From positions 30,256,001 to 30,320,000 of the forward strand of contig OZ024755.1 of assembly GCA_964016885.1 (NCBI GenBank): a DNA stretch of 64,000 bases. The letters run 5' to 3'. Every line of letters starts with the position of its first letter. The first letter of the stretch is position 1. The position numbers were made by a program, and so were the translations under genes. Under the pieces are notes generated by a model. The model was not told the DNA's origin, did no database searches, and saw only the letters and a program-made list of their open reading frames with translations. This document shows, piece by piece, positions 2,325-64,000 of this stretch. This DNA comes from Eledone cirrhosa (taxonomy: Eukaryota).

Positions 2325-2399
<75 letters not shown>

Positions 2400-2403
<4 letters not shown>

Positions 2404-2682
2404 TGAGATTCTACAGGACTAGAACTGTTTCATTCATTAGAAATCATCAGGAATCTGGGTATCAAAAAATAAAAATGGTATGTATAGGTCTCTACAAGTG
2501 GTAGGAGAGGGTGGGGAGTGGGATGGGTGTAGGTCATTGGTTGATACCCAGATTCCTGATGATTTCTAATGAATGAAACAGTTCTAGTCCTGTAGAATCT
2601 CATCTATATTAAAACTTTTATACTCTGCTATGTATTGAGTACCTTACTTACTGTGGTTACCTCCGATTCAACCCGGAATAAC
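2400..2682. mobile_element. Short PLE-like terminal element with inverted duplication (2400-2465 vs 2541-2606) inserted in (TA)n
   Basis: Perfect inverted repeat containing a hammerhead; a related minus-strand tail lies at about 13282-13375. Confidence 0.7.
2550..2600 (+). ncRNA. Type I hammerhead ribozyme (inverted copy at 2406-2456, minus)
   Basis: AGATTC-CTGATGA-T TTC TAAT GAA T-GAAA CAG..CT-GTA^GAATCT. Confidence 0.8.
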
Positions 2683-3039: not shown

Positions 3040-3963
3040 CAGGAGACTGGACTGGTGTATTCCTTAAAAGGTTTATTATACTAGGATCATTTCAATGACC
3101 GGGTTCAGTATTGACCATACGGAATGACCAGTTCTGTCCAGTGGTGAACCAACAAACCTATATATATATATATATATATACGATATTAAATAAATGGAGA
3201 AGGCATAACATATTTTTAATATGATATCCCTGAAATATATATAATTAAATAAATATGGTTTTATAAATATAGTTTCCATTTATTTAATATCGTAAATATA
3301 CTCCAAATACTTGTTGAGTGCTTTTATATCAGTTATAAATATTTACTCGTTGTTAACCCAACAATTTAAATAAAACTTTGCATATATATATATATATATA
3401 TACATATAGAAAATGAGATTTATTTAATTATGTCTCATATAAAATAGTTGTTTCTACTTTTGGCACAAGGCCAGAAATTACCCAGTACATTACTGGTACT
3501 TTATTTTATCGACCCCGTAAGGATGAAAGGGAAAGTTAACCTCGGCGGGATTTGAACTCAGTTCGTAAAGGGACGTAAGTGTGCTGCAAAGCATGGCGTC
3601 TGATCCTCTAGCGATACTGCCAACAGCCGACTATGCATAGAATACAATATAGTTAGCACCCAAACGTATAATTGGGATTATACTTAGGTATTTCCTAATG
3701 TTTGCTGAGTGAGATGAAAGTTGGTCGGCGTATCGCTAAATGCTTTCTCTGTTAATGTATTAAGTATATATGTATGTATTTTATATATATAAATACATAT
3801 ATATATATATTTGTATGTATTTCATATATATAAATACATATATATATGTATGTATTTTATATATATATAAATACATATATATAGTATTAAGGATACTATT
3901 TATGGTTATGTATATACTAAAACCTTTTATAGTTATATATATTTTAAACCCTAAATTGAAAAA

Positions 3964-4435: not shown

Positions 4436-5119
4436 CTAGGGCGGGTAAAATTCCCGAGATCCATGGACGAGTTCACTCCAGCGGTCTCTGTCCCTCATTA
4501 TCGCTGCCATGTCCTGCGTCTCCAGCAGACCAGTGTTTGTCCTTAGGGCATCAACATACGTTAACCATGGTCTTCCACTTCCAGTGTGTCCATGTTCGGT
4601 GAGAATGTCCAGCTAACCTCAGTCTCCTCTGTGTCACTTTTGAGCTGACTTTTGGGAGGCTCCCATACAGCTCTGAGTTTTTCATCCTCAGTGTATACTG
4701 ATTAATGTTCAGAGCCATCCTCAGCATTCTCGTGTAGCACCCATCCACCATCTGAGTGAGTTTCTTGGTCAGTGTCCAAGTCTCAAACCCGTACAGCAGC
4801 ACAGACTCCACTACAGCAATGAAGAGGCGGATTTTCAGGTCTTTACGAAGATCCGACTTCCACACCGATCTCAAGCTGTGGCACGCCGCCCAGGCTTTGC
4901 TCTTCCTCTCAACCACATCATCTTCCGTATTCCCAATCTTTGCTCCCAAATACAGGAAGTCCTCAACCAATTCTAGCGGCTTCCCGCCTACATTAGTGAT
5001 CCCCTCTGGCTTCTCAACATTCTCTATCAGATATTTTGTTTTAGTCTCATTCATTCTCAGCCCCACAATCATCGACACAGTCTCAACCTCTCGCATCAAA
5101 ACCTCTGCCTCCTTCACTG
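4436..5119 (-). mobile_element. RTE-clade LINE 3' fragment (RT C-terminus)
   Basis: GLRMNETKTK...VEDFLYLGA...LKIRLFIAVVESVLLYGFETWTLT...RRLRLAGH; internal deletion relative to the 50912 copy. Confidence 0.9.
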
Positions 5120-5181
5120 TATATATATATATATATATATACATATATATATAGTGTGGGTAGTATAGCGAAGTACTGGTT

Positions 5182-5271
5182 TTTGTCAAACGAGCAGATC
5201 GATACTGGAATCGGGCCCATACTTCCTATGGGTTACCTTGAGTCGACCGTCTGCGAAACGCTCGTAACAGG
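5182..5271 (+). ncRNA. Degenerate hammerhead-like motif with long stem II
   Basis: TTTGT-CAAACGA-GCAGA...TCTGC-GAAACG CT CGTA^ACAGG; core deviates from CUGANGA. Confidence 0.4.
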
Positions 5272-11376: not shown

Positions 11377-11790
11377 ACATACATACATACATAATACATA
11401 CATACATACATACATACATACATACATACATACATACATGGTGGCTGCCAACTCGTTTTCGAGTACGGCCACTACTTTATATCCATGTAGGAGAACTCCT
11501 ACCAATGCGCTGAACGAATGTGACTTTAGTCCAGCCAGCGACTTGAAAACTCTGGTACAAACACTACACCTGTGACAATTATTGACACATAGTGCTGGGC
11601 CCATGGTACCATGTGACGACAAGTGCAGAGAGATCTCCAGATATAAAGCAATGCCTGTGTCGTGAAGCTTTTATAGTGAGCAAAGGCACTGCACAAAGCC
11701 AGTCCCACTCTCTTAACCAAGATGATATTTACCAAAAAGAAGAACAAGTCAACATCATTGGATACCATCAGAGTTGCAGGTGTTATATCA
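11377..11790 (-). mobile_element. Retroposon with RTE-BovB-like zinc-finger 3' end and (TATG)n tail
   Basis: CSVCTRVFKSLAGLKSH; near-identical to 25017-25430 in the opposite orientation. Confidence 0.7.
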
Positions 11791-11874: not shown

Positions 11875-12947
11875 AGTCAGACAGTTCGGGTGTGGCACTA
11901 ACACCTGCTTCCTGAAGCTCCCACACTTCAGTGACGAAATAACAACAGCCATCCGCAGAGCTTATCAGACGAGAGAGACTAGATATCCAACTAGCCCACT
12001 CAGGACCTTCTCTACGCGGACAGCTAACCAAAAGACACTCCACCAGACATGACAACTGCTGCAAGCTAGCCAACTGCCCCATCAACGACACAGACCTATG
12101 CCACCAGGCTTACGTCGTATACAGACTAGAGTGCGACAAATGCAGCAACTTCTACGTAGGTAGCACCAGCAGACCACTTCACATAAGAATAAAAGAACAC
12201 CTCAATACTAACGCTTCCTCATTTAAGAAACACCGAGTGAAATGCAAAAACACCGACAAAAACATAACAGTTAGGATAGAAACTAAGGAAAGAAACCTCG
12301 GCAATCTTAGAATTAAGGAAGCACTGATTATAGACAAAACGCAACCACCAATCAATAATAGACTAGAACTGAACACCCAATTTTTAACATGATAGAGTAC
12401 CTAGCCCCACACTCACACCCACCCTCTCTCACACACACACACACGCTTACACCTCCACTTATTCTCTCTCACACACACATACACATACAAAGACCAGTCT
12501 TAACATGATAGAGCATCTAGCCCCCACATTTACATATAGACATATCTTCTCACACTCACACACACACATATACTTACGCCTTCACGTATTCTCCCACACA
12601 CTTAAACATACATGTACAAAACCCCTTTTAAAGGGAGACAACTCTTTATCCACCTAACCTTCACTCTTTGACATTAGACATAGAATGGAATCTCTATACC
12701 ATTTCCTGTCAGCATGACTTGGCAAGCTGATTAGAACACTGGATTAACCCCTTTACTTCCCTCCGAAGAAGAGATATTATCTCGAAAATTAAGGATATTT
12801 AAATAAATTTAAGGTAAAAGACTAATTGTCAACAATATCTTTTGCATTTGCCTTTATATTCTATATCCATACCTGCATTGTCTTGGCCTTCCAACTCCAA
12901 ACGTGTATATCTCATTACGCAATGCTTCAAGTAAACTACAACTTCCT

Positions 12948-12950
<3 letters not shown>
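11875..12950 (+). mobile_element. 5'-truncated Penelope-like retroelement (RT C-terminal linker, GIY-YIG endonuclease, 3' UTR/pLTR)
   Basis: Translates to FLKLPHFSDEITTAIRRAY, then after a frameshift/stop to CHQAYVVYRLECDKCSNFYVGSTSRPLHIRIKEH...LRIKEALIIDKTQPPINNR; HHR-like motif at 12759-12796; ends in (TA)n. Confidence 0.88.
12051..12392 (+). pseudogene. GIY-YIG endonuclease domain of the Penelope-like element
   Basis: Open frame of 113 codons with VVY-x9-FYVG-ST-R...R-xx-EH...E...P-xx-N motifs, stop TGA at 12390-12392; not in the ORF track (no start codon). Confidence 0.88.
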
Positions 12951-15520: not shown

Positions 15521-16001
15521 AAGATAAAATATTAAAAAAATAATGAATAAAACAATGAAACAGTTCCTTATATTAAACAAAAAAAGTTCATTATTTAACG
15601 ATCGTTTCTGGGATATATATGTGTTAGAATTGGCATGTATATTTAACAGATCTATGTACAAAATTATACAAAATTATATAAACTATCAAAATTAAATATA
15701 CATACCAACTCATATATATGCCGTCTTCAGAAATAAATCATTTATTTCAGAAATAAATAATTTATTTCCGTCTTCAGAAATAAATAATTTATTTCTGAAG
15801 ACGGCATATATATGAGTTGGTATGTATATTTAATTTTGATAGTTTGTATAATTTTGTATAATTTTGTACATAGATCTGTTAAATATACATGCCAATTCTA
15901 ACACATATATATCCCAGAAACGATCGTTAAATAATGAACTTTTTTTGTTTAATATAAGGAACTGTTTCATTGTTTTATTCATTATTTTTTAAATATTTTA
16001 T
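15521..16001. repeat. Near-perfect inverted repeat with arms of about 230 bp (head-to-head duplicated HHR element)
   Basis: 15521-15750 is the reverse complement of about 15765-16001. Confidence 0.9.
15789..15934 (+). ncRNA. Hammerhead with a 115-nt stem II (inverted copy at 15591-15736)
   Basis: TTATTT-CTGAAGA-[long hairpin GTTGGTATGTATATTTAA/TTAAATATACATGCCAAT]-GAAAC GATC GTT^AAATAA. Confidence 0.7.
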
Positions 16002-16393: not shown

Positions 16394-16641
16394 TTAATCT
16401 GTTATTTTAATAAATATTTGCTCTACGGTTCTTATATATTTGATATATATTTATCCTTATCGAGCCCTCTTTGGATTTTAATCTTCAAATTTATTATTAT
16501 TACTATATCCTACCCCCCACTCTCCTGAGCGTGAATTTAATAAACATTTATTGTACTGCCTCTCTGTTCTGTCCCTGTTCAATTTTTCATTATATATATA
16601 TATATATATATATATTGGAATAAATGCTCTGAAATAGCGAT

Positions 16642-16894
16642 ATATATGTGAAGATAGACATAGAATATTCGAAAATATTCTGTATGTTTATAATAAACAT
16701 TTTGAAGACCTAATCGCTATAGAATAGAATACGTCACGTATTACAATTAGATTCTCGATAAAAGCAAGGGAAGTAACCTACGCGTTTCATTAATTGTAAT
16801 ACGTGACGTATTCTATTCTATAGCGATTAGGTCTTCAAAATGTTTATTATAAACATACAGAATATTTTCGAATATTCTATGTCTACCTTCACAC

Positions 16895-16900
<6 letters not shown>
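16642..16900. repeat. Inverted repeat (arms about 105 bp) in (TA)n, with a degenerate HHR-like motif on minus
   Basis: 16642-16749 mirrors 16791-16900; minus strand reads TTGAAGA...GAAACGCGTA. Confidence 0.7.
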
Positions 16901-16967
<67 letters not shown>

Positions 16968-20359: not shown

Positions 20360-20393
20360 ATTATATATATATATATATATATACAAATAAATA

Positions 20394-20534
20394 TATGATA
20401 GGGATAAACACTAATATAAGTATATAAGTGTTTGTATTGCAAATGACCAAGTTAGCTAGATTGAATCTAGCTAACTTGGTCATTTGCAATACAAACACTT
20501 ATATACTTGTATTAGTGTTTATCCCTATCATATA
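20394..20534. repeat. Near-perfect palindrome of about 140 bp next to (TA)n
   Basis: Fold-back centred near 20462-20463; a single-arm relative lies at about 48850-48920. Confidence 0.85.
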
Positions 20535-20677
20535 TCCATTTGTATTTCACGGCTCAGAAATATCCCTCTCTTTGAGCTATTTAATTGTAAAAGACTATTT
20601 GAGTTTATAACTCTCTCTATATATATATAAGTTAAAACAATGAAATAAAAAATCAAGTCATTAGAGATATATTTCAC

Positions 20678-23882: not shown

Positions 23883-24037
23883 ATAATTACAACAGTGACA
23901 CAAACAGGTACTTAAGTTTCCTTGGGTTCTGGACACCAACTCATTCCGCCTGTCATAAGAATTTTTCTTATGACAGGTGGAATCAGTTGGTGTCCAGAAC
24001 CCAACGAAACTTAAGTACCTGTTTATGTCACTGTAGC

Positions 24038-24043
<6 letters not shown>
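23883..24043. repeat. Inverted repeat carrying two divergent HHR-like motifs (23904-23953 minus; 23973-24022 plus)
   Basis: ACAGG-(C/T)GGAAT(G/C)A-GTTGG..CCAAC-GAAAC TTAA GTA^CCTGT. Confidence 0.6.
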
Positions 24044-25016: not shown

Positions 25017-26027
25017 CAACCCTGATGGTATCCAATGATGTTGACTTGTTCTTCTTTTTGGTAAATATCATCTCGGTTAAGAGAGTGGGACTGGTTTTGT
25101 GCAGTGCCTTTGCTCACTATAAAAGCTTCACGGCACAGGCATTGCTTTATATCTGGAGATCTCTCTGCACTTGTCGTCGCGTGGTGCCATGGGCCCAGCG
25201 CTGTGTGTCAATAATTGTCACAAATGTAGTGTTTGTACCAGAGTTTTCAAGTCGCTGACTGGACTAAAAGGTCACACTCGTTCAGCGCATCGGTAGGGGT
25301 TCTCCTACATGGATATAAAGTAGTGGCCGTACTCGAAAACGAATTGGCAGCCACCATGTATGTATGTATGTATGTATGTATGTATGTATGTATGTATGTA
25401 TGTATGTATGTATGTATGTATGTATGTATGCACAGGCATTGCTTTATATCTGAAGATCTCTCTGCACTTGTCGTCACATGGTACCATGGGCCCAGCACTA
25501 TGTGTCAGTAATTGTCACAAGTGTAGTGTTTGTACCAGAGTTTTCAAGTCGCTGGCTGGACTAAAAGGTCACACTCGTTCAGCGCATCGGTAGGGGTTCT
25601 CCTACATGGATATAAAGTAGTGGCCGTACTCGAAAACGAGTTGGCAGCCACCATGTATGTATGTATGTATGTATGTATGTATGTATGTATGTATGTATGT
25701 ATGTATGTATGTATGTATGTATGTATGTATGTATGTATGTATGTATGTATGCACAGGCATTGCTTTATATCTGAAGATCTCTCTGCACTTGTCGTCACAT
25801 GGTACCATGGGCCCAGCACTATGTGTCAGTAATTGTCACAAGTGTAGTGTTTGTACCAGAGTTTTCAAGTCGCTGGCTGGACTAAAAATCACACTCGTTC
25901 AGCGCATCGGTAGGGGTTCTCCTACATGCATATAAAGTAGTGGCCGTACTCGAAAACGAGTTGGCAGCCACCATGTATGTATGTATGTATGTATGTATGT
26001 ATGTATGTATGTATGTATGTATGTATG

Positions 26028-26056
<29 letters not shown>
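25017..26056 (+). mobile_element. Same retroposon family, followed by two further tandem 3' ends, each with a (TATG)n tail
   Basis: Units at about 25017-25356, 25431-25653 and 25751-25973; HKCSVCTRVFKSLAGLKGHTRSAHR. Confidence 0.75.
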
Positions 26057-26060
<4 letters not shown>

Positions 26061-26581
26061 GCTTTTATGTCTGTATGTGCGTGTACTATGTGTGTATATG
26101 TTTGTAGTCGCTGCGTTTGTAAATTAGATCTTGTTTTTTATTGAATCAAATTTTCTATGGCAATTCTCAATTCGAGGATCAAGGCTATAAAGAGAATATT
26201 TACGTTGAACGTTCGGAAAATATGTACTGGATTATATTGAATATAATTTTAGCATGAGAATATAATTGATATCACCATCCTATAAAAATGAAACTATAAT
26301 AACAAAACTGCTCATTTAATATATATGTATGTATGTATATATATATCAATATATATATATGTAAGTATGCATGTATACGTACATACATATATGTATACAG
26401 ACGTACAGTAGCATGCACATATATATATATATATACATATATACATACATATGCATACAGGTACACATACATATATGCACGTATCAGTTTAGCGGCGCTA
26501 ACGTCGCTTTGTTCGTTTGTAAACAAACTGAACAGCCTGAATTTATGCCATACGGTGTTAAGGCAACCACGTCACCTTTTT

Positions 26582-26668
26582 GTTCAACACTGACACAGGA
26601 ACGATGTACTAGTTTCAAGCTTGTTAGCTATCATCAGCACCGTTTACCCATCTGCCAGATAGTTGAAC
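26582..26668 (-). ncRNA. Hammerhead ribozyme, inverted copy in array A
   Basis: Reverse complement of 27263-27349 (TCATCAG at 26631-26637). Confidence 0.88.
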
Positions 26669-27262
26669 GTTCGAAAGTATATACTTTCCTTATGAAAATT
26701 AACGGCTGAGCAGCCTAATTTGCATATTGAGTGAGTTAAATCGGTCAGGCATACCGAAAACGATAAATTGAAACAAAATGAAAACGAAATTTCATTTCTC
26801 ACTCTTAGTATGGCACTTACTTAAATGTAAGTATGCATGCATACGTACATACATATATGTATACAGACGTACAGTAGCATGCACATATATGTATATATAT
26901 ACATATATACATACATATGCATACAGGTACACATACATATATGCACGTATCAGTTTAGCGGCGCTAACGTCGCTTTGTTCGTTTGTAAACAAACTGAACA
27001 GCCTGAATTTATGCCATACGGTGTTAAGGCAACCACGTCACCTTTTTGTTCAACACTGATACGTCTGTATACATATATGTATGTACGTATACATGCATAC
27101 TTACATTTAAGTAAGTGCCATACTAAGAGTGAGAAATGAAATTTCGTTTTCATTTTGTTTCAATTTATCGTTTTCGGTATGCCTGACCGATTTAACTCAC
27201 TCAATATGCAAATTAGGCTGCTCAGCCGTTAATTTTCATAAGGAAAGTATATACTTTCGAAC

Positions 27263-27349
27263 GTTCAACTATCTGGCAGATGGGTAAACGGTGCTGATGA
27301 TAGCTAACAAGCTTGAAACTAGTACATCGTTCCTGTGTCAGTGTTGAAC
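27263..27349 (+). ncRNA. Type I hammerhead ribozyme of array A (plus-strand cores at 27294, 27760, 28226, 28692, 29158, 29624, 30090, 30556)
   Basis: AACGGTG-CTGATGA-T AGCT AACA AGCT T-GAAA-C TA-GTA^CATCGTT; stem I extends via GG/CC past a TA bulge, CTGGCA/TGTCAG and GTTCAAC/GTTGAAC; predicted cut after 27324. Confidence 0.88.
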
Positions 27350-30300
27350 AAAAAGGTGACGTGGTTGCCTTAACACCGTATGGCATAAATTCAGGCTGTT
27401 CAGTTTGTTTACAAACGAACAAAGCGACGTTAGCGCCGCTAAACTGATACGTGCATATATGTATGTGTACCTGTATGCATATGTATGTATATATGTATAT
27501 ATATATATATATGTGCATGCTACTGTACGTCTGTATACATATATGTATGTACGTATACATGCATACTTACATTTAAGTAAGTGCCATACTAAGAGTGAGA
27601 AATGAAATTTCGTTTTCATTTTGTTTCAATTTATCGTTTTCGGTATGCCTGACCGATTTAACTCACTCAATATGCAAATTAGGCTGCTCAGCCGTTAATT
27701 TTCATAAGGAAAGTATATACTTTCGAACGTTCAACTATCTGGCAGATGGGTAAACGGTGCTGATGATAGCTAACAAGCTTGAAACTAGTACATCGTTCCT
27801 GTGTCAGTGTTGAACAAAAAGGTGACGTGGTTGCCTTAACACCGTATGGCATAAATTCAGGCTGTTCAGTTTGTTTACAAACGAACAAAGCGACGTTAGC
27901 GCCGCTAAACTGATACGTGCATATATGTATGTGTACCTGTATGCATATGTATGTATATATGTATATATATATATATATGTGCATGCTACTGTACGTCTGT
28001 ATACATATATGTATGTACGTATACATGCATACTTACATTTAAGTAAGTGCCATACTAAGAGTGAGAAATGAAATTTCGTTTTCATTTTGTTTCAATTTAT
28101 CGTTTTCGGTATGCCTGACCGATTTAACTCACTCAATATGCAAATTAGGCTGCTCAGCCGTTAATTTTCATAAGGAAAGTATATACTTTCGAACGTTCAA
28201 CTATCTGGCAGATGGGTAAACGGTGCTGATGATAGCTAACAAGCTTGAAACTAGTACATCGTTCCTGTGTCAGTGTTGAACAAAAAGGTGACGTGGTTGC
28301 CTTAACACCGTATGGCATAAATTCAGGCTGTTCAGTTTGTTTACAAACGAACAAAGCGACGTTAGCGCCGCTAAACTGATACGTGCATATATGTATGTGT
28401 ACCTGTATGCATATGTATGTATATATGTATATATATATATATATGTGCATGCTACTGTACGTCTGTATACATATATGTATGTACGTATACATGCATACTT
28501 ACATTTAAGTAAGTGCCATACTAAGAGTGAGAAATGAAATTTCGTTTTCATTTTGTTTCAATTTATCGTTTTCGGTATGCCTGACCGATTTAACTCACTC
28601 AATATGCAAATTAGGCTGCTCAGCCGTTAATTTTCATAAGGAAAGTATATACTTTCGAACGTTCAACTATCTGGCAGATGGGTAAACGGTGCTGATGATA
28701 GCTAACAAGCTTGAAACTAGTACATCGTTCCTGTGTCAGTGTTGAACAAAAAGGTGACGTGGTTGCCTTAACACCGTATGGCATAAATTCAGGCTGTTCA
28801 GTTTGTTTACAAACGAACAAAGCGACGTTAGCGCCGCTAAACTGATACGTGCATATATGTATGTGTACCTGTATGCATATGTATGTATATATGTATATAT
28901 ATATATATATGTGCATGCTACTGTACGTCTGTATACATATATGTATGTACGTATACATGCATACTTACATTTAAGTAAGTGCCATACTAAGAGTGAGAAA
29001 TGAAATTTCGTTTTCATTTTGTTTCAATTTATCGTTTTCGGTATGCCTGACCGATTTAACTCACTCAATATGCAAATTAGGCTGCTCAGCCGTTAATTTT
29101 CATAAGGAAAGTATATACTTTCGAACGTTCAACTATCTGGCAGATGGGTAAACGGTGCTGATGATAGCTAACAAGCTTGAAACTAGTACATCGTTCCTGT
29201 GTCAGTGTTGAACAAAAAGGTGACGTGGTTGCCTTAACACCGTATGGCATAAATTCAGGCTGTTCAGTTTGTTTACAAACGAACAAAGCGACGTTAGCGC
29301 CGCTAAACTGATACGTGCATATATGTATGTGTACCTGTATGCATATGTATGTATATATGTATATATATATATATATGTGCATGCTACTGTACGTCTGTAT
29401 ACATATATGTATGTACGTATACATGCATACTTACATTTAAGTAAGTGCCATACTAAGAGTGAGAAATGAAATTTCGTTTTCATTTTGTTTCAATTTATCG
29501 TTTTCGGTATGCCTGACCGATTTAACTCACTCAATATGCAAATTAGGCTGCTCAGCCGTTAATTTTCATAAGGAAAGTATATACTTTCGAACGTTCAACT
29601 ATCTGGCAGATGGGTAAACGGTGCTGATGATAGCTAACAAGCTTGAAACTAGTACATCGTTCCTGTGTCAGTGTTGAACAAAAAGGTGACGTGGTTGCCT
29701 TAACACCGTATGGCATAAATTCAGGCTGTTCAGTTTGTTTACAAACGAACAAAGCGACGTTAGCGCCGCTAAACTGATACGTGCATATATGTATGTGTAC
29801 CTGTATGCATATGTATGTATATATGTATATATATATATATATGTGCATGCTACTGTACGTCTGTATACATATATGTATGTACGTATACATGCATACTTAC
29901 ATTTAAGTAAGTGCCATACTAAGAGTGAGAAATGAAATTTCGTTTTCATTTTGTTTCAATTTATCGTTTTCGGTATGCCTGACCGATTTAACTCACTCAA
30001 TATGCAAATTAGGCTGCTCAGCCGTTAATTTTCATAAGGAAAGTATATACTTTCGAACGTTCAACTATCTGGCAGATGGGTAAACGGTGCTGATGATAGC
30101 TAACAAGCTTGAAACTAGTACATCGTTCCTGTGTCAGTGTTGAACAAAAAGGTGACGTGGTTGCCTTAACACCGTATGGCATAAATTCAGGCTGTTCAGT
30201 TTGTTTACAAACGAACAAAGCGACGTTAGCGCCGCTAAACTGATACGTGCATATATGTATGTGTACCTGTATGCATATGTATGTATATATGTATATATAT

Positions 30301-30888
30301 ATATATATGTGCATGCTACTGTACGTCTGTATACATATATGTATGTACGTATACATGCATACTTACATTTAAGTAAGTGCCATACTAAGAGTGAGAAATG
30401 AAATTTCGTTTTCATTTTGTTTCAATTTATCGTTTTCGGTATGCCTGACCGATTTAACTCACTCAATATGCAAATTAGGCTGCTCAGCCGTTAATTTTCA
30501 TAAGGAAAGTATATACTTTCGAACGTTCAACTATCTGGCAGATGGGTAAACGGTGCTGATGATAGCTAACAAGCTTGAAACTAGTACATCGTTCCTGTGT
30601 CAGTGTTGAACAAAAAGGTGACGTGGTTGCCTTAACACCGTATGGCATAAATTCAGGCTGTTCAGTTTGTTTACAAACGAACAAAGCGACGTTAGCGCTG
30701 CTAAACTGATACGTGCATATATGTATGTGTACCTGTATGCATATGTATGTATATATGTATATATATATATATATGTGCATGCTACTGTACGTCTGTATAC
30801 ATATATGTATGTACGTATACATGCATACTTACATTTAAGTAAGTGCCATACTAAGAGTGAGAAATGAAATTTCGTTTTCATTTTGTTT

Positions 30889-30979
<91 letters not shown>

Positions 30980-49853: not shown

Positions 49854-50501
49854 CAGAGGCTGTGTTGTTGCTGGATAAAGTGCATTTATAAATAAGAAGA
49901 AAGCACGAACGGGGGATAATTTCCCTTCATCAGTTTTCCTCAATAACTTTCTTTAGTTATTGACGCACTGGGGCTAGGCATCTTGTCTTTAATGTGTAGA
50001 AATGTCCATCATCTCCAGAAGACAACTGATGAAGGGAAAGCACCCCCCGTCCGTGCTTTCCTCTTATATATATATATCACAGAAAAAAAAGAGAATCAGT
50101 GTTTCGACGAATGGAATTTATTGGACATATTACAAATCGTCGCAACACTGATTCTCTTTTTTTCTGTGATATCATACTCTGCTCTATGAGAACATCGAGT
50201 GCTCATACTGCCTACCGCATACAGACGCTTTAAGAATCCAACACCAATTATATATATGTATATATATATAATTGTTTCTACTCTTGGCACAAGGTCACAA
50301 ATACCCAGTGTATTACTGGTACTTTATTTTATCAACTCCATAAGGATGAAAGGCAAAGTTAACCTCGGGGGGATTTGAACTCAGAATGGCAAAGGCCGTA
50401 ACTCTATACGTCAAAGCACAGCGTCCGACCCTCTACCGATACTGCCAATCCACCGCCCTTATATATATATAATGGCAGCATCTCAGTTTCTGTCACATCA
50501 C

Positions 50502-50743: not shown

Positions 50744-50911
50744 GACTATATATATATATGTTTATATCTGTATTTTTAACCGTTGGTCAATCAATGATAA
50801 ACTTTGATTGCCAAATAAATTAACTATGAGATATAAAAGATACAGAAGCGAAAACCAACCAAACAGTGAGAGTGTTCGGTTATTATTTCTGGCAATATTA
50901 TTACAACAATA

Positions 50912-51305
50912 TGACCCTCCCCAAGAAACACACTCAGATGGTGGATGGGTGCTACACGAGAATGCTGAGGATGGCTCTGAACATTAATCAGTATGCACTG
51001 AGGATGAAAAACTCAGAGCTGGACGGGAGCCTCCCAAAAGTCAGTTCAAAAGTGACACAGAGGAGATTGAGGTTAGCTGGACATGCTCACCGACATCCAG
51101 AGTTGACACTGCACTCAGTGCTCCTGTGGGAGCCCCTGCATGGACACACTGGTAGAGGAAGACCGAGGTTAACATATGTTGATGCCCTAAGGGCAGACAC
51201 TGGTCTGTTGGAGACGCAGGACACGGCAGCGATAATGAGGGATAGAGACCGCTGGAGAGAACTCGTCCATGGATCTCGGGAATTTTACCCACCCTAGATA
51301 GATAG
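50912..51305 (+). mobile_element. RTE-clade LINE 3' fragment
   Basis: DGCYTRMLRMALNI...RRLRLAGHAHRHPE...LLWEP...GRGRPRLTYVD...DRDRWR; TAGA tail. Confidence 0.9.
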
Positions 51306-58495: not shown

Positions 58496-58502
<7 letters not shown>

Positions 58503-58700
58503 TGCCCTCTCGTTGTCGAGTATGGCCATTCCACGATAAAATATTATTAATAATTATTAATTAATTCAATCGTGCAATGCCTGTGGGTGAAGATATTTTT
58601 TAAAGTGAGGAAAGACTGTGCACTGAGCCAATCCCACTCTCTGAGCGACAGTAGCTATAACCTGGAAAGAAGAAAAGATCAACATCATAGGTAACTACTG
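58496..58700 (-). mobile_element. Diverged relative of the 25017 retroposon
   Basis: Shares CCCACTCTC, TGTGCA, GCAATGCCTGTG and the GGCAGCCATC end. Confidence 0.5.
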
Positions 58701-58708
58701 ATATATAT

Positions 58709-58749
<41 letters not shown>

Positions 58750-58944
58750 GTTAAAGATGTACATCCATATATGTATACTGAAATACTAGTATGTATATGA
58801 ATACACACACGTATACATATGTAGATGTACCAAGTTTTTTCACTGGTCACTTTACTGTGAGTGGCCAGCTATTCTGTATGTAAACACACAGACAAACCGG
58901 TTTTTAGAGTCATACTGGTTTTTGAGGAAACACCTTTCCTCTAT

Positions 58945-59036
58945 TCTCCAGAAAGCCAGACAAGGAATATTGAACTAGTTTCGTTGTTGTTACAACTCAT
59001 CAGCAATATTTACCTATCTTCCGGCCTCTCTAGAGA
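58945..59036 (-). ncRNA. Hammerhead ribozyme in the minus arm of array B (7 copies; TCATCAG at 58997, 59464, 59931, 60398, 60865, 61332, 61799)
   Basis: Reverse complement of 62401-62492. Confidence 0.92.
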
Positions 59037-62000
59037 ATCGTAAAAGCACATATCGTTATATGCTTTTTCTATGAAAATTAGTAGTGGGCAGACTAATTTG
59101 CATAGAGTGTGAGTAAGTACCGGTTCAACGGAGACGATAAAAACAAATAACGAAACGAAATTAAATTTCGTTTCGTTTGTAACTCACTTTTGTATGACTG
59201 ACGCTTAAACAATTAAGTTAAAGATGTACATCCATATATGTATACTGAAATACTAGTATGTATATGAATACACACACGTATACATATGTAGATGTACCAA
59301 GTTTTTTCACTGGTCACTTTACTGTGAGTGGCCAGCTATTCTGTATGTAAACACACAGACAAACCGGTTTTTAGAGTCATACTGGTTTTTGAGGAAACAC
59401 CTTTCCTCTATTCTCCAGAAAGCCAGACAAGGAATATTGAACTAGTTTCGTTGTTGTTACAACTCATCAGCAATATTTACCTATCTTCCGGCCTCTCTAG
59501 AGAATCGTAAAAGCACATATCGTTATATGCTTTTTCTATGAAAATTAGTAGTGGGCAGACTAATTTGCATAGAGTGTGAGTAAGTACCGGTTCAACGGAG
59601 ACGATAAAAACAAATAACGAAACGAAATTAAATTTCGTTTCGTTTGTAACTCACTTTTGTATGACTGACGCTTAAACAATTAAGTTAAAGATGTACATCC
59701 ATATATGTATACTGAAATACTAGTATGTATATGAATACACACACGTATACATATGTAGATGTACCAAGTTTTTTCACTGGTCACTTTACTGTGAGTGGCC
59801 AGCTATTCTGTATGTAAACACACAGACAAACCGGTTTTTAGAGTCATACTGGTTTTTGAGGAAACACCTTTCCTCTATTCTCCAGAAAGCCAGACAAGGA
59901 ATATTGAACTAGTTTCGTTGTTGTTACAACTCATCAGCAATATTTACCTATCTTCCGGCCTCTCTAGAGAATCGTAAAAGCACATATCGTTATATGCTTT
60001 TTCTATGAAAATTAGTAGTGGGCAGACTAATTTGCATAGAGTGTGAGTAAGTACCGGTTCAACGGAGACGATAAAAACAAATAACGAAACGAAATTAAAT
60101 TTCGTTTCGTTTGTAACTCACTTTTGTATGACTGACGCTTAAACAATTAAGTTAAAGATGTACATCCATATATGTATACTGAAATACTAGTATGTATATG
60201 AATACACACACGTATACATATGTAGATGTACCAAGTTTTTTCACTGGTCACTTTACTGTGAGTGGCCAGCTATTCTGTATGTAAACACACAGACAAACCG
60301 GTTTTTAGAGTCATACTGGTTTTTGAGGAAACACCTTTCCTCTATTCTCCAGAAAGCCAGACAAGGAATATTGAACTAGTTTCGTTGTTGTTACAACTCA
60401 TCAGCAATATTTACCTATCTTCCGGCCTCTCTAGAGAATCGTAAAAGCACATATCGTTATATGCTTTTTCTATGAAAATTAGTAGTGGGCAGACTAATTT
60501 GCATAGAGTGTGAGTAAGTACCGGTTCAACGGAGACGATAAAAACAAATAACGAAACGAAATTAAATTTCGTTTCGTTTGTAACTCACTTTTGTATGACT
60601 GACGCTTAAACAATTAAGTTAAAGATGTACATCCATATATGTATACTGAAATACTAGTATGTATATGAATACACACACGTATACATATGTAGATGTACCA
60701 AGTTTTTTCACTGGTCACTTTACTGTGAGTGGCCAGCTATTCTGTATGTAAACACACAGACAAACCGGTTTTTAGAGTCATACTGGTTTTTGAGGAAACA
60801 CCTTTCCTCTATTCTCCAGAAAGCCAGACAAGGAATATTGAACTAGTTTCGTTGTTGTTACAACTCATCAGCAATATTTACCTATCTTCCGGCCTCTCTA
60901 GAGAATCGTAAAAGCACATATCGTTATATGCTTTTTCTATGAAAATTAGTAGTGGGCAGACTAATTTGCATAGAGTGTGAGTAAGTACCGGTTCAACGGA
61001 GACGATAAAAACAAATAACGAAACGAAATTAAATTTCGTTTCGTTTGTAACTCACTTTTGTATGACTGACGCTTAAACAATTAAGTTAAAGATGTACATC
61101 CATATATGTATACTGAAATACTAGTATGTATATGAATACACACACGTATACATATGTAGATGTACCAAGTTTTTTCACTGGTCACTTTACTGTGAGTGGC
61201 CAGCTATTCTGTATGTAAACACACAGACAAACCGGTTTTTAGAGTCATACTGGTTTTTGAGGAAACACCTTTCCTCTATTCTCCAGAAAGCCAGACAAGG
61301 AATATTGAACTAGTTTCGTTGTTGTTACAACTCATCAGCAATATTTACCTATCTTCCGGCCTCTCTAGAGAATCGTAAAAGCACATATCGTTATATGCTT
61401 TTTCTATGAAAATTAGTAGTGGGCAGACTAATTTGCATAGAGTGTGAGTAAGTACCGGTTCAACGGAGACGATAAAAACAAATAACGAAACGAAATTAAA
61501 TTTCGTTTCGTTTGTAACTCACTTTTGTATGACTGACGCTTAAACAATTAAGTTAAAGATGTACATCCATATATGTATACTGAAATACTAGTATGTATAT
61601 GAATACACACACGTATACATATGTAGATGTACCAAGTTTTTTCACTGGTCACTTTACTGTGAGTGGCCAGCTATTCTGTATGTAAACACACAGACAAACC
61701 GGTTTTTAGAGTCATACTGGTTTTTGAGGAAACACCTTTCCTCTATTCTCCAGAAAGCCAGACAAGGAATATTGAACTAGTTTCGTTGTTGTTACAACTC
61801 ATCAGCAATATTTACCTATCTTCCGGCCTCTCTAGAGGATCGTAAAAGCACATATCGTTATATGCTTTTTCTATGAAAATTAGTAGTGGGCAGACTAATT
61901 TGCATAGAGTGTGAGTAAGTACCGGTTCAACGGAGACGATAAAAACAAATAACGAAACGAAATTAAATTTCGTTTCGTTTGTAACTCACTTTTGTATGAC

Positions 62001-62400
62001 TGACGCTTGTCTGGCTTTCTGGAGAATAGAGGAAAGGTGTTTCCTCAAAAACCAGTATGACTCTAAAAACCGGTTTGTCTGTGTGTTTACATACAGAATA
62101 GCTGGCCACTCACAGTAAAGTGACCAGTGAAAAAACTTGGTACATCTACATATGTATACGTGTGTGTATTCATATACATACTAGTATTTCAGTATACATA
62201 TATGGATGTACATCTTTAACTTAATTGTTTAAGCGTCAGTCATACAAAAGTGAGTTACAAACGAAACGAAATTTAATTTCGTTTCGTTATTTGTTTTTAT
62301 CGTCTCCGTTGAACCGGTACTTACTCACACTCTATGCAAATTAGTCTGCCCACTACTAATTTTCATAGAAAAAGCATATAACGATATGTGCTTTTACGAT

Positions 62401-62492
62401 TCTCTAGAGAGGCCGGAAGATAGGTAAATATTGCTGATGAGTTGTAACAACAACGAAACTAGTTCAATATTCCTTGTCTGGCTTTCTGGAGA
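62401..62492 (+). ncRNA. Type I hammerhead ribozyme of array B (plus-strand cores at 62434, 62901, 63368, 63835)
   Basis: AATATTG-CTGATGA-GTTGT AACA ACAAC-GAAA-C TA-GTT^CAATATT; stem I extends AGG/CCT past a TA bulge and TCTCTAGAGAGGCCGGA/TCTGGCTTTCTGGAGA; predicted cut after 62464. Confidence 0.92.
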
Positions 62493-64000
62493 ATAGAGGA
62501 AAGGTGTTTCCTCAAAAACCAGTATGACTCTAAAAACCGGTTTGTCTGTGTGTTTACATACAGAATAGCTGGCCACTCACAGTAAAGTGACCAGTGAAAA
62601 AACTTGGTACATCTACATATGTATACGTGTGTGTATTCATATACATACTAGTATTTCAGTATACATATATGGATGTACATCTTTAACTTAATTGTTTAAG
62701 CGTCAGTCATACAAAAGTGAGTTACAAACGAAACGAAATTTAATTTCGTTTCGTTATTTGTTTTTATCGTCTCCGTTGAACCGGTACTTACTCACACTCT
62801 ATGCAAATTAGTCTGCCCACTACTAATTTTCATAGAAAAAGCATATAACGATATGTGCTTTTACGATTCTCTAGAGAGGCCGGAAGATAGGTAAATATTG
62901 CTGATGAGTTGTAACAACAACGAAACTAGTTCAATATTCCTTGTCTGGCTTTCTGGAGAATAGAGGAAAGGTGTTTCCTCAAAAACCAGTATGACTCTAA
63001 AAACCGGTTTGTCTGTGTGTTTACATACAGAATAGCTGGCCACTCACAGTAAAGTGACCAGTGAAAAAACTTGGTACATCTACATATGTATACGTGTGTG
63101 TATTCATATACATACTAGTATTTCAGTATACATATATGGATGTACATCTTTAACTTAATTGTTTAAGCGTCAGTCATACAAAAGTGAGTTACAAACGAAA
63201 CGAAATTTAATTTCGTTTCGTTATTTGTTTTTATCGTCTCCGTTGAACCGGTACTTACTCACACTCTATGCAAATTAGTCTGCCCACTACTAATTTTCAT
63301 AGAAAAAGCATATAACGATATGTGCTTTTACGATTCTCTAGAGAGGCCGGAAGATAGGTAAATATTGCTGATGAGTTGTAACAACAACGAAACTAGTTCA
63401 ATATTCCTTGTCTGGCTTTCTGGAGAATAGAGGAAAGGTGTTTCCTCAAAAACCAGTATGACTCTAAAAACCGGTTTGTCTGTGTGTTTACATACAGAAT
63501 AGCTGGCCACTCACAGTAAAGTGACCAGTGAAAAAACTTGGTACATCTACATATGTATACGTGTGTGTATTCATATACATACTAGTATTTCAGTATACAT
63601 ATATGGATGTACATCTTTAACTTAATTGTTTAAGCGTCAGTCATACAAAAGTGAGTTACAAACGAAACGAAATTTAATTTCGTTTCGTTATTTGTTTTTA
63701 TCGTCTCCGTTGAACCGGTACTTACTCACACTCTATGCAAATTAGTCTGCCCACTACTAATTTTCATAGAAAAAGCATATAACGATATGTGCTTTTACGA
63801 TTCTCTAGAGAGGCCGGAAGATAGGTAAATATTGCTGATGAGTTGTAACAACAACGAAACTAGTTCAATATTCCTTGTCTGGCTTTCTGGAGAATAGAGG
63901 AAAGGTGTTTCCTCAAAAACCAGTATGACTCTAAAAACCGGTTTGTCTGTGTGTTTACATACAGAATAGCTGGCCACTCACAGTAAAGTGACCAGTGAAA

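What the first reader, a model, noticed from the sequence alone, without database searches (positions are those of the whole stretch)
61990..62030. Array B inversion also maps next to the cleavage site; left arm is almost exactly 7 units
Seen: the plus arm starts at 62006 (CTTGTCTGG), 8 nt downstream of GUU^CAATATTC, joined by a CTT microhomology. The minus arm 58744-62008 is 3265 bp, which is 7x467 minus 4. This independently repeats the array A pattern. Inference: one shared RT-mediated integration mechanism. Under twin priming, the plus arm should end outside the window near the TTAACTTAATTGTTTAAGCG phase, in (TA)n.
Basis: partly seen in the sequence, partly recalled or inferred. Interest (0 to 1): 0.72.

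Follow-up and report, generated by a model that had tools for sequence, protein, structure and literature searches.

The report
Ribozyme repeat copied from both ends
Two back-to-back runs of a 467-base repeat carrying a predicted self-cutting RNA motif meet close to the predicted cut site, a layout likely left when a Penelope-type jumping-gene enzyme copied one small RNA into both ends of a DNA break, which would make a proposed but unshown copying step testable.

Summary
The numbers are right. The minus arm 58744-62008 is 3265 nt (7x467-4), the plus arm starts 8 nt after a type I hammerhead cut, and both share CTT. A junction end this near the cut in 2 of 2 arrays has a chance of 0.35-1.4%; the CTT (6.7%) and the '7 units minus 4' (2-6%) are weak.

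The arrays are metazoan retrozymes with the Penelope (PLE) footprint: head-to-head arms, outer ends in (TA)n, and a one-sided tail.

Array A ends at two different phases (248, 306). The family's commonest (TA)n end is phase 303 (12 contigs in each of two runs). None of 9 other TA-anchored fold-backs in the window is symmetric.

Best model: both DNA ends primed at two fixed sites on one RNA, probably a ring; a linear cut multimer is the main rival. The far end could not be seen, and no read spans the junction. The scan found this system before on other DNA of this genome.

The parts
58701..58743 (.). (TA)n target at the left outer end of array B
58744..62008 (-). Array B minus arm, 3265 nt; RNA sense runs from phase 234 (62008) to phase 229 (58744); 7 hammerheads; one substitution at 61838
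62006..62008 (.). CTT shared by both arms at the head-to-head junction
62006..64000 (+). Array B plus arm, from phase 9; at least 1995 nt, 4 hammerheads, runs off the window
62427..62471 (+). Type I hammerhead (example copy): 7-bp stem I, CUGAUGA, 5-bp stem II, GAAA, palindromic CUAG at helix III; predicted cut 62464^62465
   Evidence: (RF02275, 37.7 bits, below gathering 52; E 4.8e-08); pair 62442:62453 swapped T-A to A-T in one contig of X4
61768..61812 (-). Hammerhead of the minus arm nearest the junction (predicted cut after 61775)
62687..62700 (+). Predicted small hairpin (phases 223-236) holding the proximal end zone: phase 229 (left end of B) and 234 (TA ends in X2; inner end of the minus arm)
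62767..62767 (+). Phase 303, the commonest (TA)n-joined end of the family in runs X1 and X2; inferred distal start site
   Evidence: 12 contigs in each run; A's end at 306 aligns to B 299
62801..62808 (+). ATGCAAAT octamer, at the equivalent place in units A and B; possible promoter element, untested
26359..27059 (-). Array A minus arm, 701 nt, phase 14 to 248, outer end in (TA)n
27060..30892 (+). Array A plus arm, 3833 nt, phase 202 to 306, outer end in (TA)n
11943..12949 (+). 5'-truncated Penelope-like element (GIY-YIG frame, 3' region, end in (TA)n); the kind of enzyme that could serve as helper, link not shown

Best explanation
Array B is two head-to-head runs of a 467-bp hammerhead-bearing repeat (a retrozyme), likely made in one insertion in which a Penelope-type enzyme cut a (TA)n tract and both DNA ends primed reverse transcription at two fixed sites about 60-75 nt apart on the same RNA, probably a ring copied round several times. 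Shown: the arms, their phases, their near-identity, the (TA)n ends and the CTT overlap. Inferred: (1) the unit is transcribed, cuts itself and is circularised; (2) one DNA end starts at the proximal hairpin (phase 229; 248 in A) and the other at the distal site (phase about 303; 306 in A), which gives the one-sided PLE tail; (3) the two cDNAs tend to stop at two places, near the cut/ligation site (phases 9, 14, 2) and near the proximal start zone (234, 202), so '7 units minus 4' would be an enzyme stalling as it returns to its own start; (4) the cDNA ends anneal through a few bases and are joined. Prediction: the plus arm ends in (TA)n at phase about 303 (64168+467k). Double-ended PLE-type priming alone I put near 0.8; the ring is the weaker step.
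For: 3 of 3 visible outer ends enter (TA)n with 1-3 nt of overlap. A's ends differ by 58 nt in phase, and the B family uses phases 303 and 234. Of 9 TA-anchored fold-backs (13 listed) 5 carry a 41-81 nt one-sided extension against a background of 8.9% (P 5e-4), and none is symmetric. PLE papers describe inverted copies with a tail at one end (PMC8557442, PMC3846280) and a PLE protein that cuts and extends both strands from two internal RNA sites (PMC11167929). For one template: the arms are identical but for 1 substitution in B and 3 in A, while 481 of 1107 contigs laid in X1 are under 99% alike. For a ring: in A the arm that reaches the cut region is 701 nt and its partner 3833 nt, which priming in one unit of a linear RNA cannot give (inference); all 20 hammerhead contexts are seamless; a ring template was proposed in PMC7229834. 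The units fold far better than shuffles (z -11.4 and -7.8). A PLE endonuclease remnant in the window also ends in (TA)n.
Against: The far end of B was not seen (no genome held), and no contig or read showed the junction. A ring has no 5' end, so stops near the cut need a ligation scar or re-opening, for which I have no evidence; a linear cut RNA explains them more simply. In vitro the Anolis PLE used unprocessed RNA, and its authors found no reads ending at the cut. Of 5 shown 5'-side loose ends that are not plain diverged unit sequence, only 1 is near the cut (phases 2, 53, 134, 240, 407; one search showed 14 of 88 rows). The 58-74 nt spacing exceeds the 30-40 bp tail in the papers. MAFFT aligns A 248 to B 244, not 229, so the equivalence rests on the predicted hairpin. 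No RNA evidence, and n is 2 arrays.
Confidence: 0.45

Rival explanations
1. Twin priming on one linear multimeric transcript whose 5' end is a ribozyme cut. The first cDNA starts at phase 229, runs 7 units and stops where the second primer sits; the second cDNA runs to the cut 5' end.
For: It explains the near-cut ends (phases 9, 14, 2) directly. The minus arm stops at 234, an observed TA-joined end (4 contigs in X2). A 4-nt gap fits the 1-10 bp deletions and duplications at L1 inversions (PMC11702581). A helix III of this kind cuts poorly as a monomer (PMC4209133), so long uncut RNAs are possible.
Against: It needs an RNA with 11 or more uncut ribozymes, although tandem copies can cut as dimers. 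The offset in A is 47 nt. It predicts near-symmetric outer ends for B, whereas A and 9 of 9 other fold-backs are asymmetric. Arrays could only shrink from one round to the next (inference).
Confidence: 0.3
2. Two separate RNA molecules, one per DNA end, each copied from its own start site and joined afterwards.
For: The PLE protein is predicted to be a dimer acting on both strands (PMC11167929). L1 insertions drawn from two transcripts are known (PMC11702581). Arm lengths would be independent, as in A.
Against: The arms are near-identical in both arrays although the family is polymorphic; one source locus would have to dominate the RNA pool.
Confidence: 0.1
3. Fold-back: one cDNA reaches phase 9, its 3' end re-anneals on itself through CTT 225 nt back and copies itself toward the target. 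This is akin to the self-priming proposed for PLE palindromes.
For: It gives the same junction and the CTT. Palindromic PLE junctions are read as self-priming (PMC3846280). The X1 contig at phase 2 is such a palindrome.
Against: Neither junction in the window is a palindrome (inner phases differ by 225 and 188 nt). In A the near-cut arm is the short one, so nearest-site fold-back fails.
Confidence: 0.07
4. Assembly or library chimera, or a later DNA inversion inside an ordinary satellite array.
For: The junction is unconfirmed by reads. Near-identical arrays are prone to misassembly. Local expansion by unequal crossover has been suggested for retrozymes (10.64898/2026.07.22.740005).
Against: The junction is not a mirror image. 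Array A has the same layout with different flanks on each side. Both arms have their RNA-3' ends at the outside in (TA)n, at phases used family-wide. Junction phases would be random (0.35-1.4%).
Confidence: 0.06

Closest known systems
Metazoan non-LTR retrozymes (Cervera and de la Pena 2020, PMC7229834, passages and Discussion read; Li et al. 2026, 10.64898/2026.07.22.740005, parts 1-3 of 5 read)
   Same: Non-coding tandem units, a type I hammerhead in every unit, low GC, strong predicted fold, PLE remnant in the same window.
   Different: The unit is 466-467 bp (150-450 bp in PMC7229834; 51-972 bp in Li et al.). The text read does not describe two-armed inverted arrays, fixed (TA)n end points or junction phases.
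Endonuclease-bearing Penelope-like elements: inverted 5'-truncated copy with one-sided tail (PMC8557442, PMC3846280, passages); two internal RT start sites of Poseidon_Ac (PMC11167929, parts 1-2 of 4)
   Same: Head-to-head arms, (TA)n target, two end points, little homology at the primed ends, hammerhead.
   Different: No ORF; each arm is a multimer; the spacing of ends is 58-74 nt rather than 30-40; the junctions here are offset by about 200 nt rather than palindromic.
L1 twin priming (as described in PMC2912911 and PMC11702581, passages)
   Same: Inverted arms primed from both DNA ends, short microhomology at the inner junction.
   Different: No poly(A); the second start appears to be a fixed site rather than chance annealing; the offset in array A is 47 nt; no target-site duplication can be read in (TA)n.

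Membership tests
Metazoan non-LTR retrozyme | Type I hammerhead in every tandem unit | tested here: met
   11 of 11 cores in B and 9 of 9 in A are intact; RF02275 match below the gathering score; one compensatory pair change
Metazoan non-LTR retrozyme | Short, low-GC, non-coding tandem unit without LTR features | tested here: met
   467 bp, 35% GC; no frame of 100 aa or more in B, and one 114-aa antisense frame per unit in A that was not searched against families
Metazoan non-LTR retrozyme | Self-cleavage of the RNA | not testable with these tools
   needs an in vitro assay
Metazoan non-LTR retrozyme | Expressed as linear and circular RNA | tested here: inconclusive
   no holder on record as RNA; contigs cannot tell a ring from a tandem array
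PLE-type insertion | Head-to-head inverted copy at the 5' side | tested here: met
   2 of 2 arrays
PLE-type insertion | Tail at one outer end only | tested here: inconclusive
   met in A (248 vs 306); far end of B not visible; family ends at 303 and 234
PLE-type insertion | AT-rich or (TA)n target | tested here: met
   3 of 3 visible outer ends
Autonomous PLE | RT plus GIY-YIG ORF | tested here: not met
   absent from the arrays; a separate remnant at 11943-12392
L1-type twin priming | Inner breakpoints within about 10 nt on the template | tested here: inconclusive
   not met in A (47 nt); in B it depends on the unseen far end
L1-type twin priming | Microhomology at the inversion junction | tested here: inconclusive
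   3 nt in B (chance 6.7%), 0 nt in A
L1-type twin priming | Target-site duplication and poly(A) tail | tested here: not met
   no poly(A) at any visible end; a duplication cannot be read inside (TA)n

The most novel reading that the evidence does not exclude
A Penelope-type reverse transcriptase copies one small RNA ring round and round from both ends of a DNA break, and the inner junction of each array records two roadblocks on the ring: the ribozyme cut/ligation site and the enzyme's own start site. Each array would then be a fossil read-out of rolling-circle reverse transcription, including its processivity (7 full turns here).
Probability: 0.3. Interest if true: 0.72.

Novelty: new variant of a known kind. 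Interest (0 to 1): 0.5.

Why it matters
How ribozyme repeats are copied into animal genomes, and how Penelope-like elements build their inverted ends, are both stated as open in the papers read (PMC7229834, PMC8557442, 10.64898/2026.07.22.740005). Because the unit is short and the copies young, every end of an array can be given a phase on the RNA. That turns ring versus linear template, and one RNA versus two, into countable predictions, starting with the far end of this array (phase 303 or 224-244). The finding itself adds one half-visible locus.

Tried and rejected
Whole-genome search: no genome is held, so the far end could not be read.

Junction support: no strand-change joint in the contigs of X1, X2, X10, X4 or X5, X6. 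This is no test, because contigs drop rare joints, and X1/X2 carry other majority letters at 62643 and (X2) 62669 and may not be the window's individual. Hi-C runs X21 and X22 laid 0 of about 12.8 million records each (1-2% of each run read): no test of the junction.

No RNA holder was listed.

Spread over many organisms: 17 organism codes held part of the stretch. I laid runs of 4 of them. B, C and D showed 1, 10 and 3 contigs, and organism D's raw reads showed none. Carry-over between samples seems likelier than horizontal transfer; not pursued.

Rfam at gathering level found nothing in the window.

A 10-nt third-site match across A's junction (phase 119, a possible hairpin skip) has a chance of 6.3% in 3000 simulated junctions; dropped. 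No third-site match covers B's junction.

A hammerhead-like core in the PLE remnant near 12762-12790 did not fold better than shuffles (z +0.8) or align with the array ribozymes; not counted as a link.

A bulged stem behind the end points, mentioned in scan notes, was not apparent by eye in A or B.

The repeat finder was swamped by microsatellites. No earlier finding matched by sequence, by words or nearby.

Full report
What is there. The window is AT- and microsatellite-rich animal DNA. A GIY-YIG frame in it is 67% identical to a protein that a source labels Octopus bimaculoides, so the host is probably an octopus. Two tandem arrays, A (466 bp) and B (467 bp), are 58% identical in 440 aligned columns. 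Every unit holds a type I hammerhead core: 9 of 9 in A and 11 of 11 in B. Rfam gives RF02275 at 37.7 bits, below its gathering score of 52, E 4.8e-08. One contig of run X4 has stem II pair 62442:62453 swapped from T-A to A-T and the cut triplet changed to GUC, which suggests the fold is maintained. The monomers fold far better than shuffles (z -11.4 and -7.8). Cleavage itself is predicted, not shown.

The observation. With phase 1 as the first base after the predicted cut, B's minus arm runs from phase 234 (62008) to 229 (58744, into (TA)n), 3265 nt. The plus arm starts at phase 9 (62006), with CTT shared. A's minus arm runs from 14 to 248 (701 nt) and its plus arm from 202 to 306 (3833 nt), both ending in (TA)n. 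A junction end within 14 nt after the cut in both arrays has a chance of 0.35% (1.4% two-sided, window chosen afterwards). The CTT has 6.7%, and '7 units minus 4' has 1.9% per arm or 5.7% for any of three arms. The pattern is shared only in part: each array has one inner end near the cut and one at 202-234, but the arm that starts in the small hairpin loop stops near the cut in A and at 234 in B.

Evidence from other copies. No genome is held, so I laid public contigs on one B monomer. In runs X1 and X2 (one sample of organism A) 1107 and 1047 contigs were laid, and 481 of the 1107 were under 99% alike. The best-supported loose end in both runs is (TA)n behind 62767, phase 303 (12 contigs each). 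X2 also has (TA)n behind phase 234 (4 contigs). Only 14 of 88 loose ends were shown, and contigs are not loci. A's end at 306 aligns to B 299. Both left ends (B 229, A 248) fall in the loop of a small predicted hairpin, although MAFFT aligns A 248 to B 244. One X1 contig continues before phase 2 with the reverse complement of phases 8-19 (1 mismatch), centred on the palindrome at phases 2-7: a third head-to-head junction at the cut, from one contig, and possibly a library fold-back. Four other shown 5'-side loose ends lie at phases 53, 134, 240 and 407, so 5' ends are not confined to the cut. No run showed the window's own junction, and this is not an informative negative.

Evidence within the window. 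Prompted by scan notes, I listed 13 other self-palindromic fold-backs. Nine have an outer end in (TA)n; the other 4 were left out. In 5 of the 9 the other arm runs on 41-81 nt before (TA)n, against 8.9% of random positions (P 5e-4). The rest differ by 25, 25, 134 and 504 nt; the one that looked symmetric (16591-16945) has about 25 extra bases on the left. These belong to other families. So unequal outer ends are the local rule. A truncated PLE at 11943-12949 (PF01541, E 5e-07; 60% identical over 141 aa to an RT plus GIY-YIG protein) also ends in (TA)n. No sequence link to the arrays was found.

How it most likely works. PLE insertions often carry an inverted 5'-truncated copy and a 30-40 bp tail at one end (PMC8557442, PMC3846280; passages). 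A purified PLE protein cuts and extends both strands of AT-rich DNA and starts at two internal RNA sites that bracket the tail (PMC11167929, parts 1-2 of 4). Arrays A and B read as this footprint on a multimer: both DNA ends primed on one RNA at a proximal site (229-234; 248) and a distal site (303; 306). I noted this reading before seeing the scan's notes. One template is favoured because the arms are near-identical (1 substitution in B, 3 in A) in a polymorphic family. A ring is favoured because, if both primers start in one unit as in the simple fold-backs, a linear RNA cannot give A's 701-nt near-cut arm beside a 3833-nt partner. A ring also makes '7 units minus 4' a return to the enzyme's own start. 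A ring template was proposed, not shown, in PMC7229834 (passages and Discussion). Scan notes mostly favour a ring and one favours cut units; they are unchecked, and they raised my lean to the ring somewhat. L1 twin priming leaves inner offsets of 1-10 bp (PMC11702581, passages; model in PMC2912911, passages), which A does not meet. The models differ at the unseen far end: 64168+467k for phase 303, 64094-64099+467k for 229-234, and exactly 65495 or 65569 for fold-back.

Comparison and novelty. The element fits metazoan non-LTR retrozymes on the sequence features I could test; cleavage and ring RNA are untested. Their PLE origin is argued in 10.64898/2026.07.22.740005 (parts 1-3 of 5 and a term search; supplements not seen), where 'head-to-head', 'octopus' and 'target site' do not occur. 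I also saw passages of PMC11722881, PMC6431247 and PMC4209133. Nine library searches turned up no description of two-armed retrozyme arrays or their junction phases; most subscription papers are not in the library, and the supplement of PMC7229834 with its model figure was not seen. The scan has noted this system many times on other DNA of this genome.

Verdict. Observation confirmed; interpretation partly supported; the specific far-end prediction is less likely than phase 303. New variant of a known kind, interest 0.5.

Noticed in passing
window 11943-12949: 5'-truncated Penelope-like element with a GIY-YIG frame, a hammerhead-like core variant near 12762-12790 and a 3' end in (TA)n.
   Followed up: partly
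window 2397-2609, 3173-3300, 20381-20545, 23883-24043, 50074-50172: Fold-backs with one end in (TA)n and a 41-81 nt extension at the other; 2397-2609 carries a hammerhead-like core in both arms.
   Followed up: partly
window 62801-62808 and phase 348 of unit A: ATGCAAAT octamer in a conserved block 119-131 nt before the cut in both units. An snRNA-type promoter, as I recall for newt satellite 2, is possible (recalled, not checked).
   Followed up: no
run X4, laid on 62330-62796: One 497-nt contig that closes on itself as a single unit (depth 11), with a compensatory stem II swap and a GUC cut triplet; similar low-depth copies in X5 and X6, none in the raw reads X21 and X22.
   Followed up: partly
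window 25133-26047, related to 11440-11770 and 58497-58700: 297-bp repeat whose copies are separated by (ATGT)n; a related piece lies just left of array B. Looks like the 3' end of another retroelement.
   Followed up: no
window 27055-27064: The 10 bases across A's junction also occur at phase 119 of the unit, a possible hairpin skip; chance 6.3%.
   Followed up: yes
window 26840, 26891, 30699, 61838: All four single-copy differences in the arrays are transitions (A>G, T>C, C>T, T>C in RNA sense).
   Followed up: no
window 4551-5225 and 50830-51297: Two related LINE-like frames (DUF6451 match below its cut-off in the first).
   Followed up: no
window 15524-16001: 478-bp fold-back with a 20-bp tandem unit at its centre, right end in (TA)n and a 134-nt extension on the left.
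   Followed up: no
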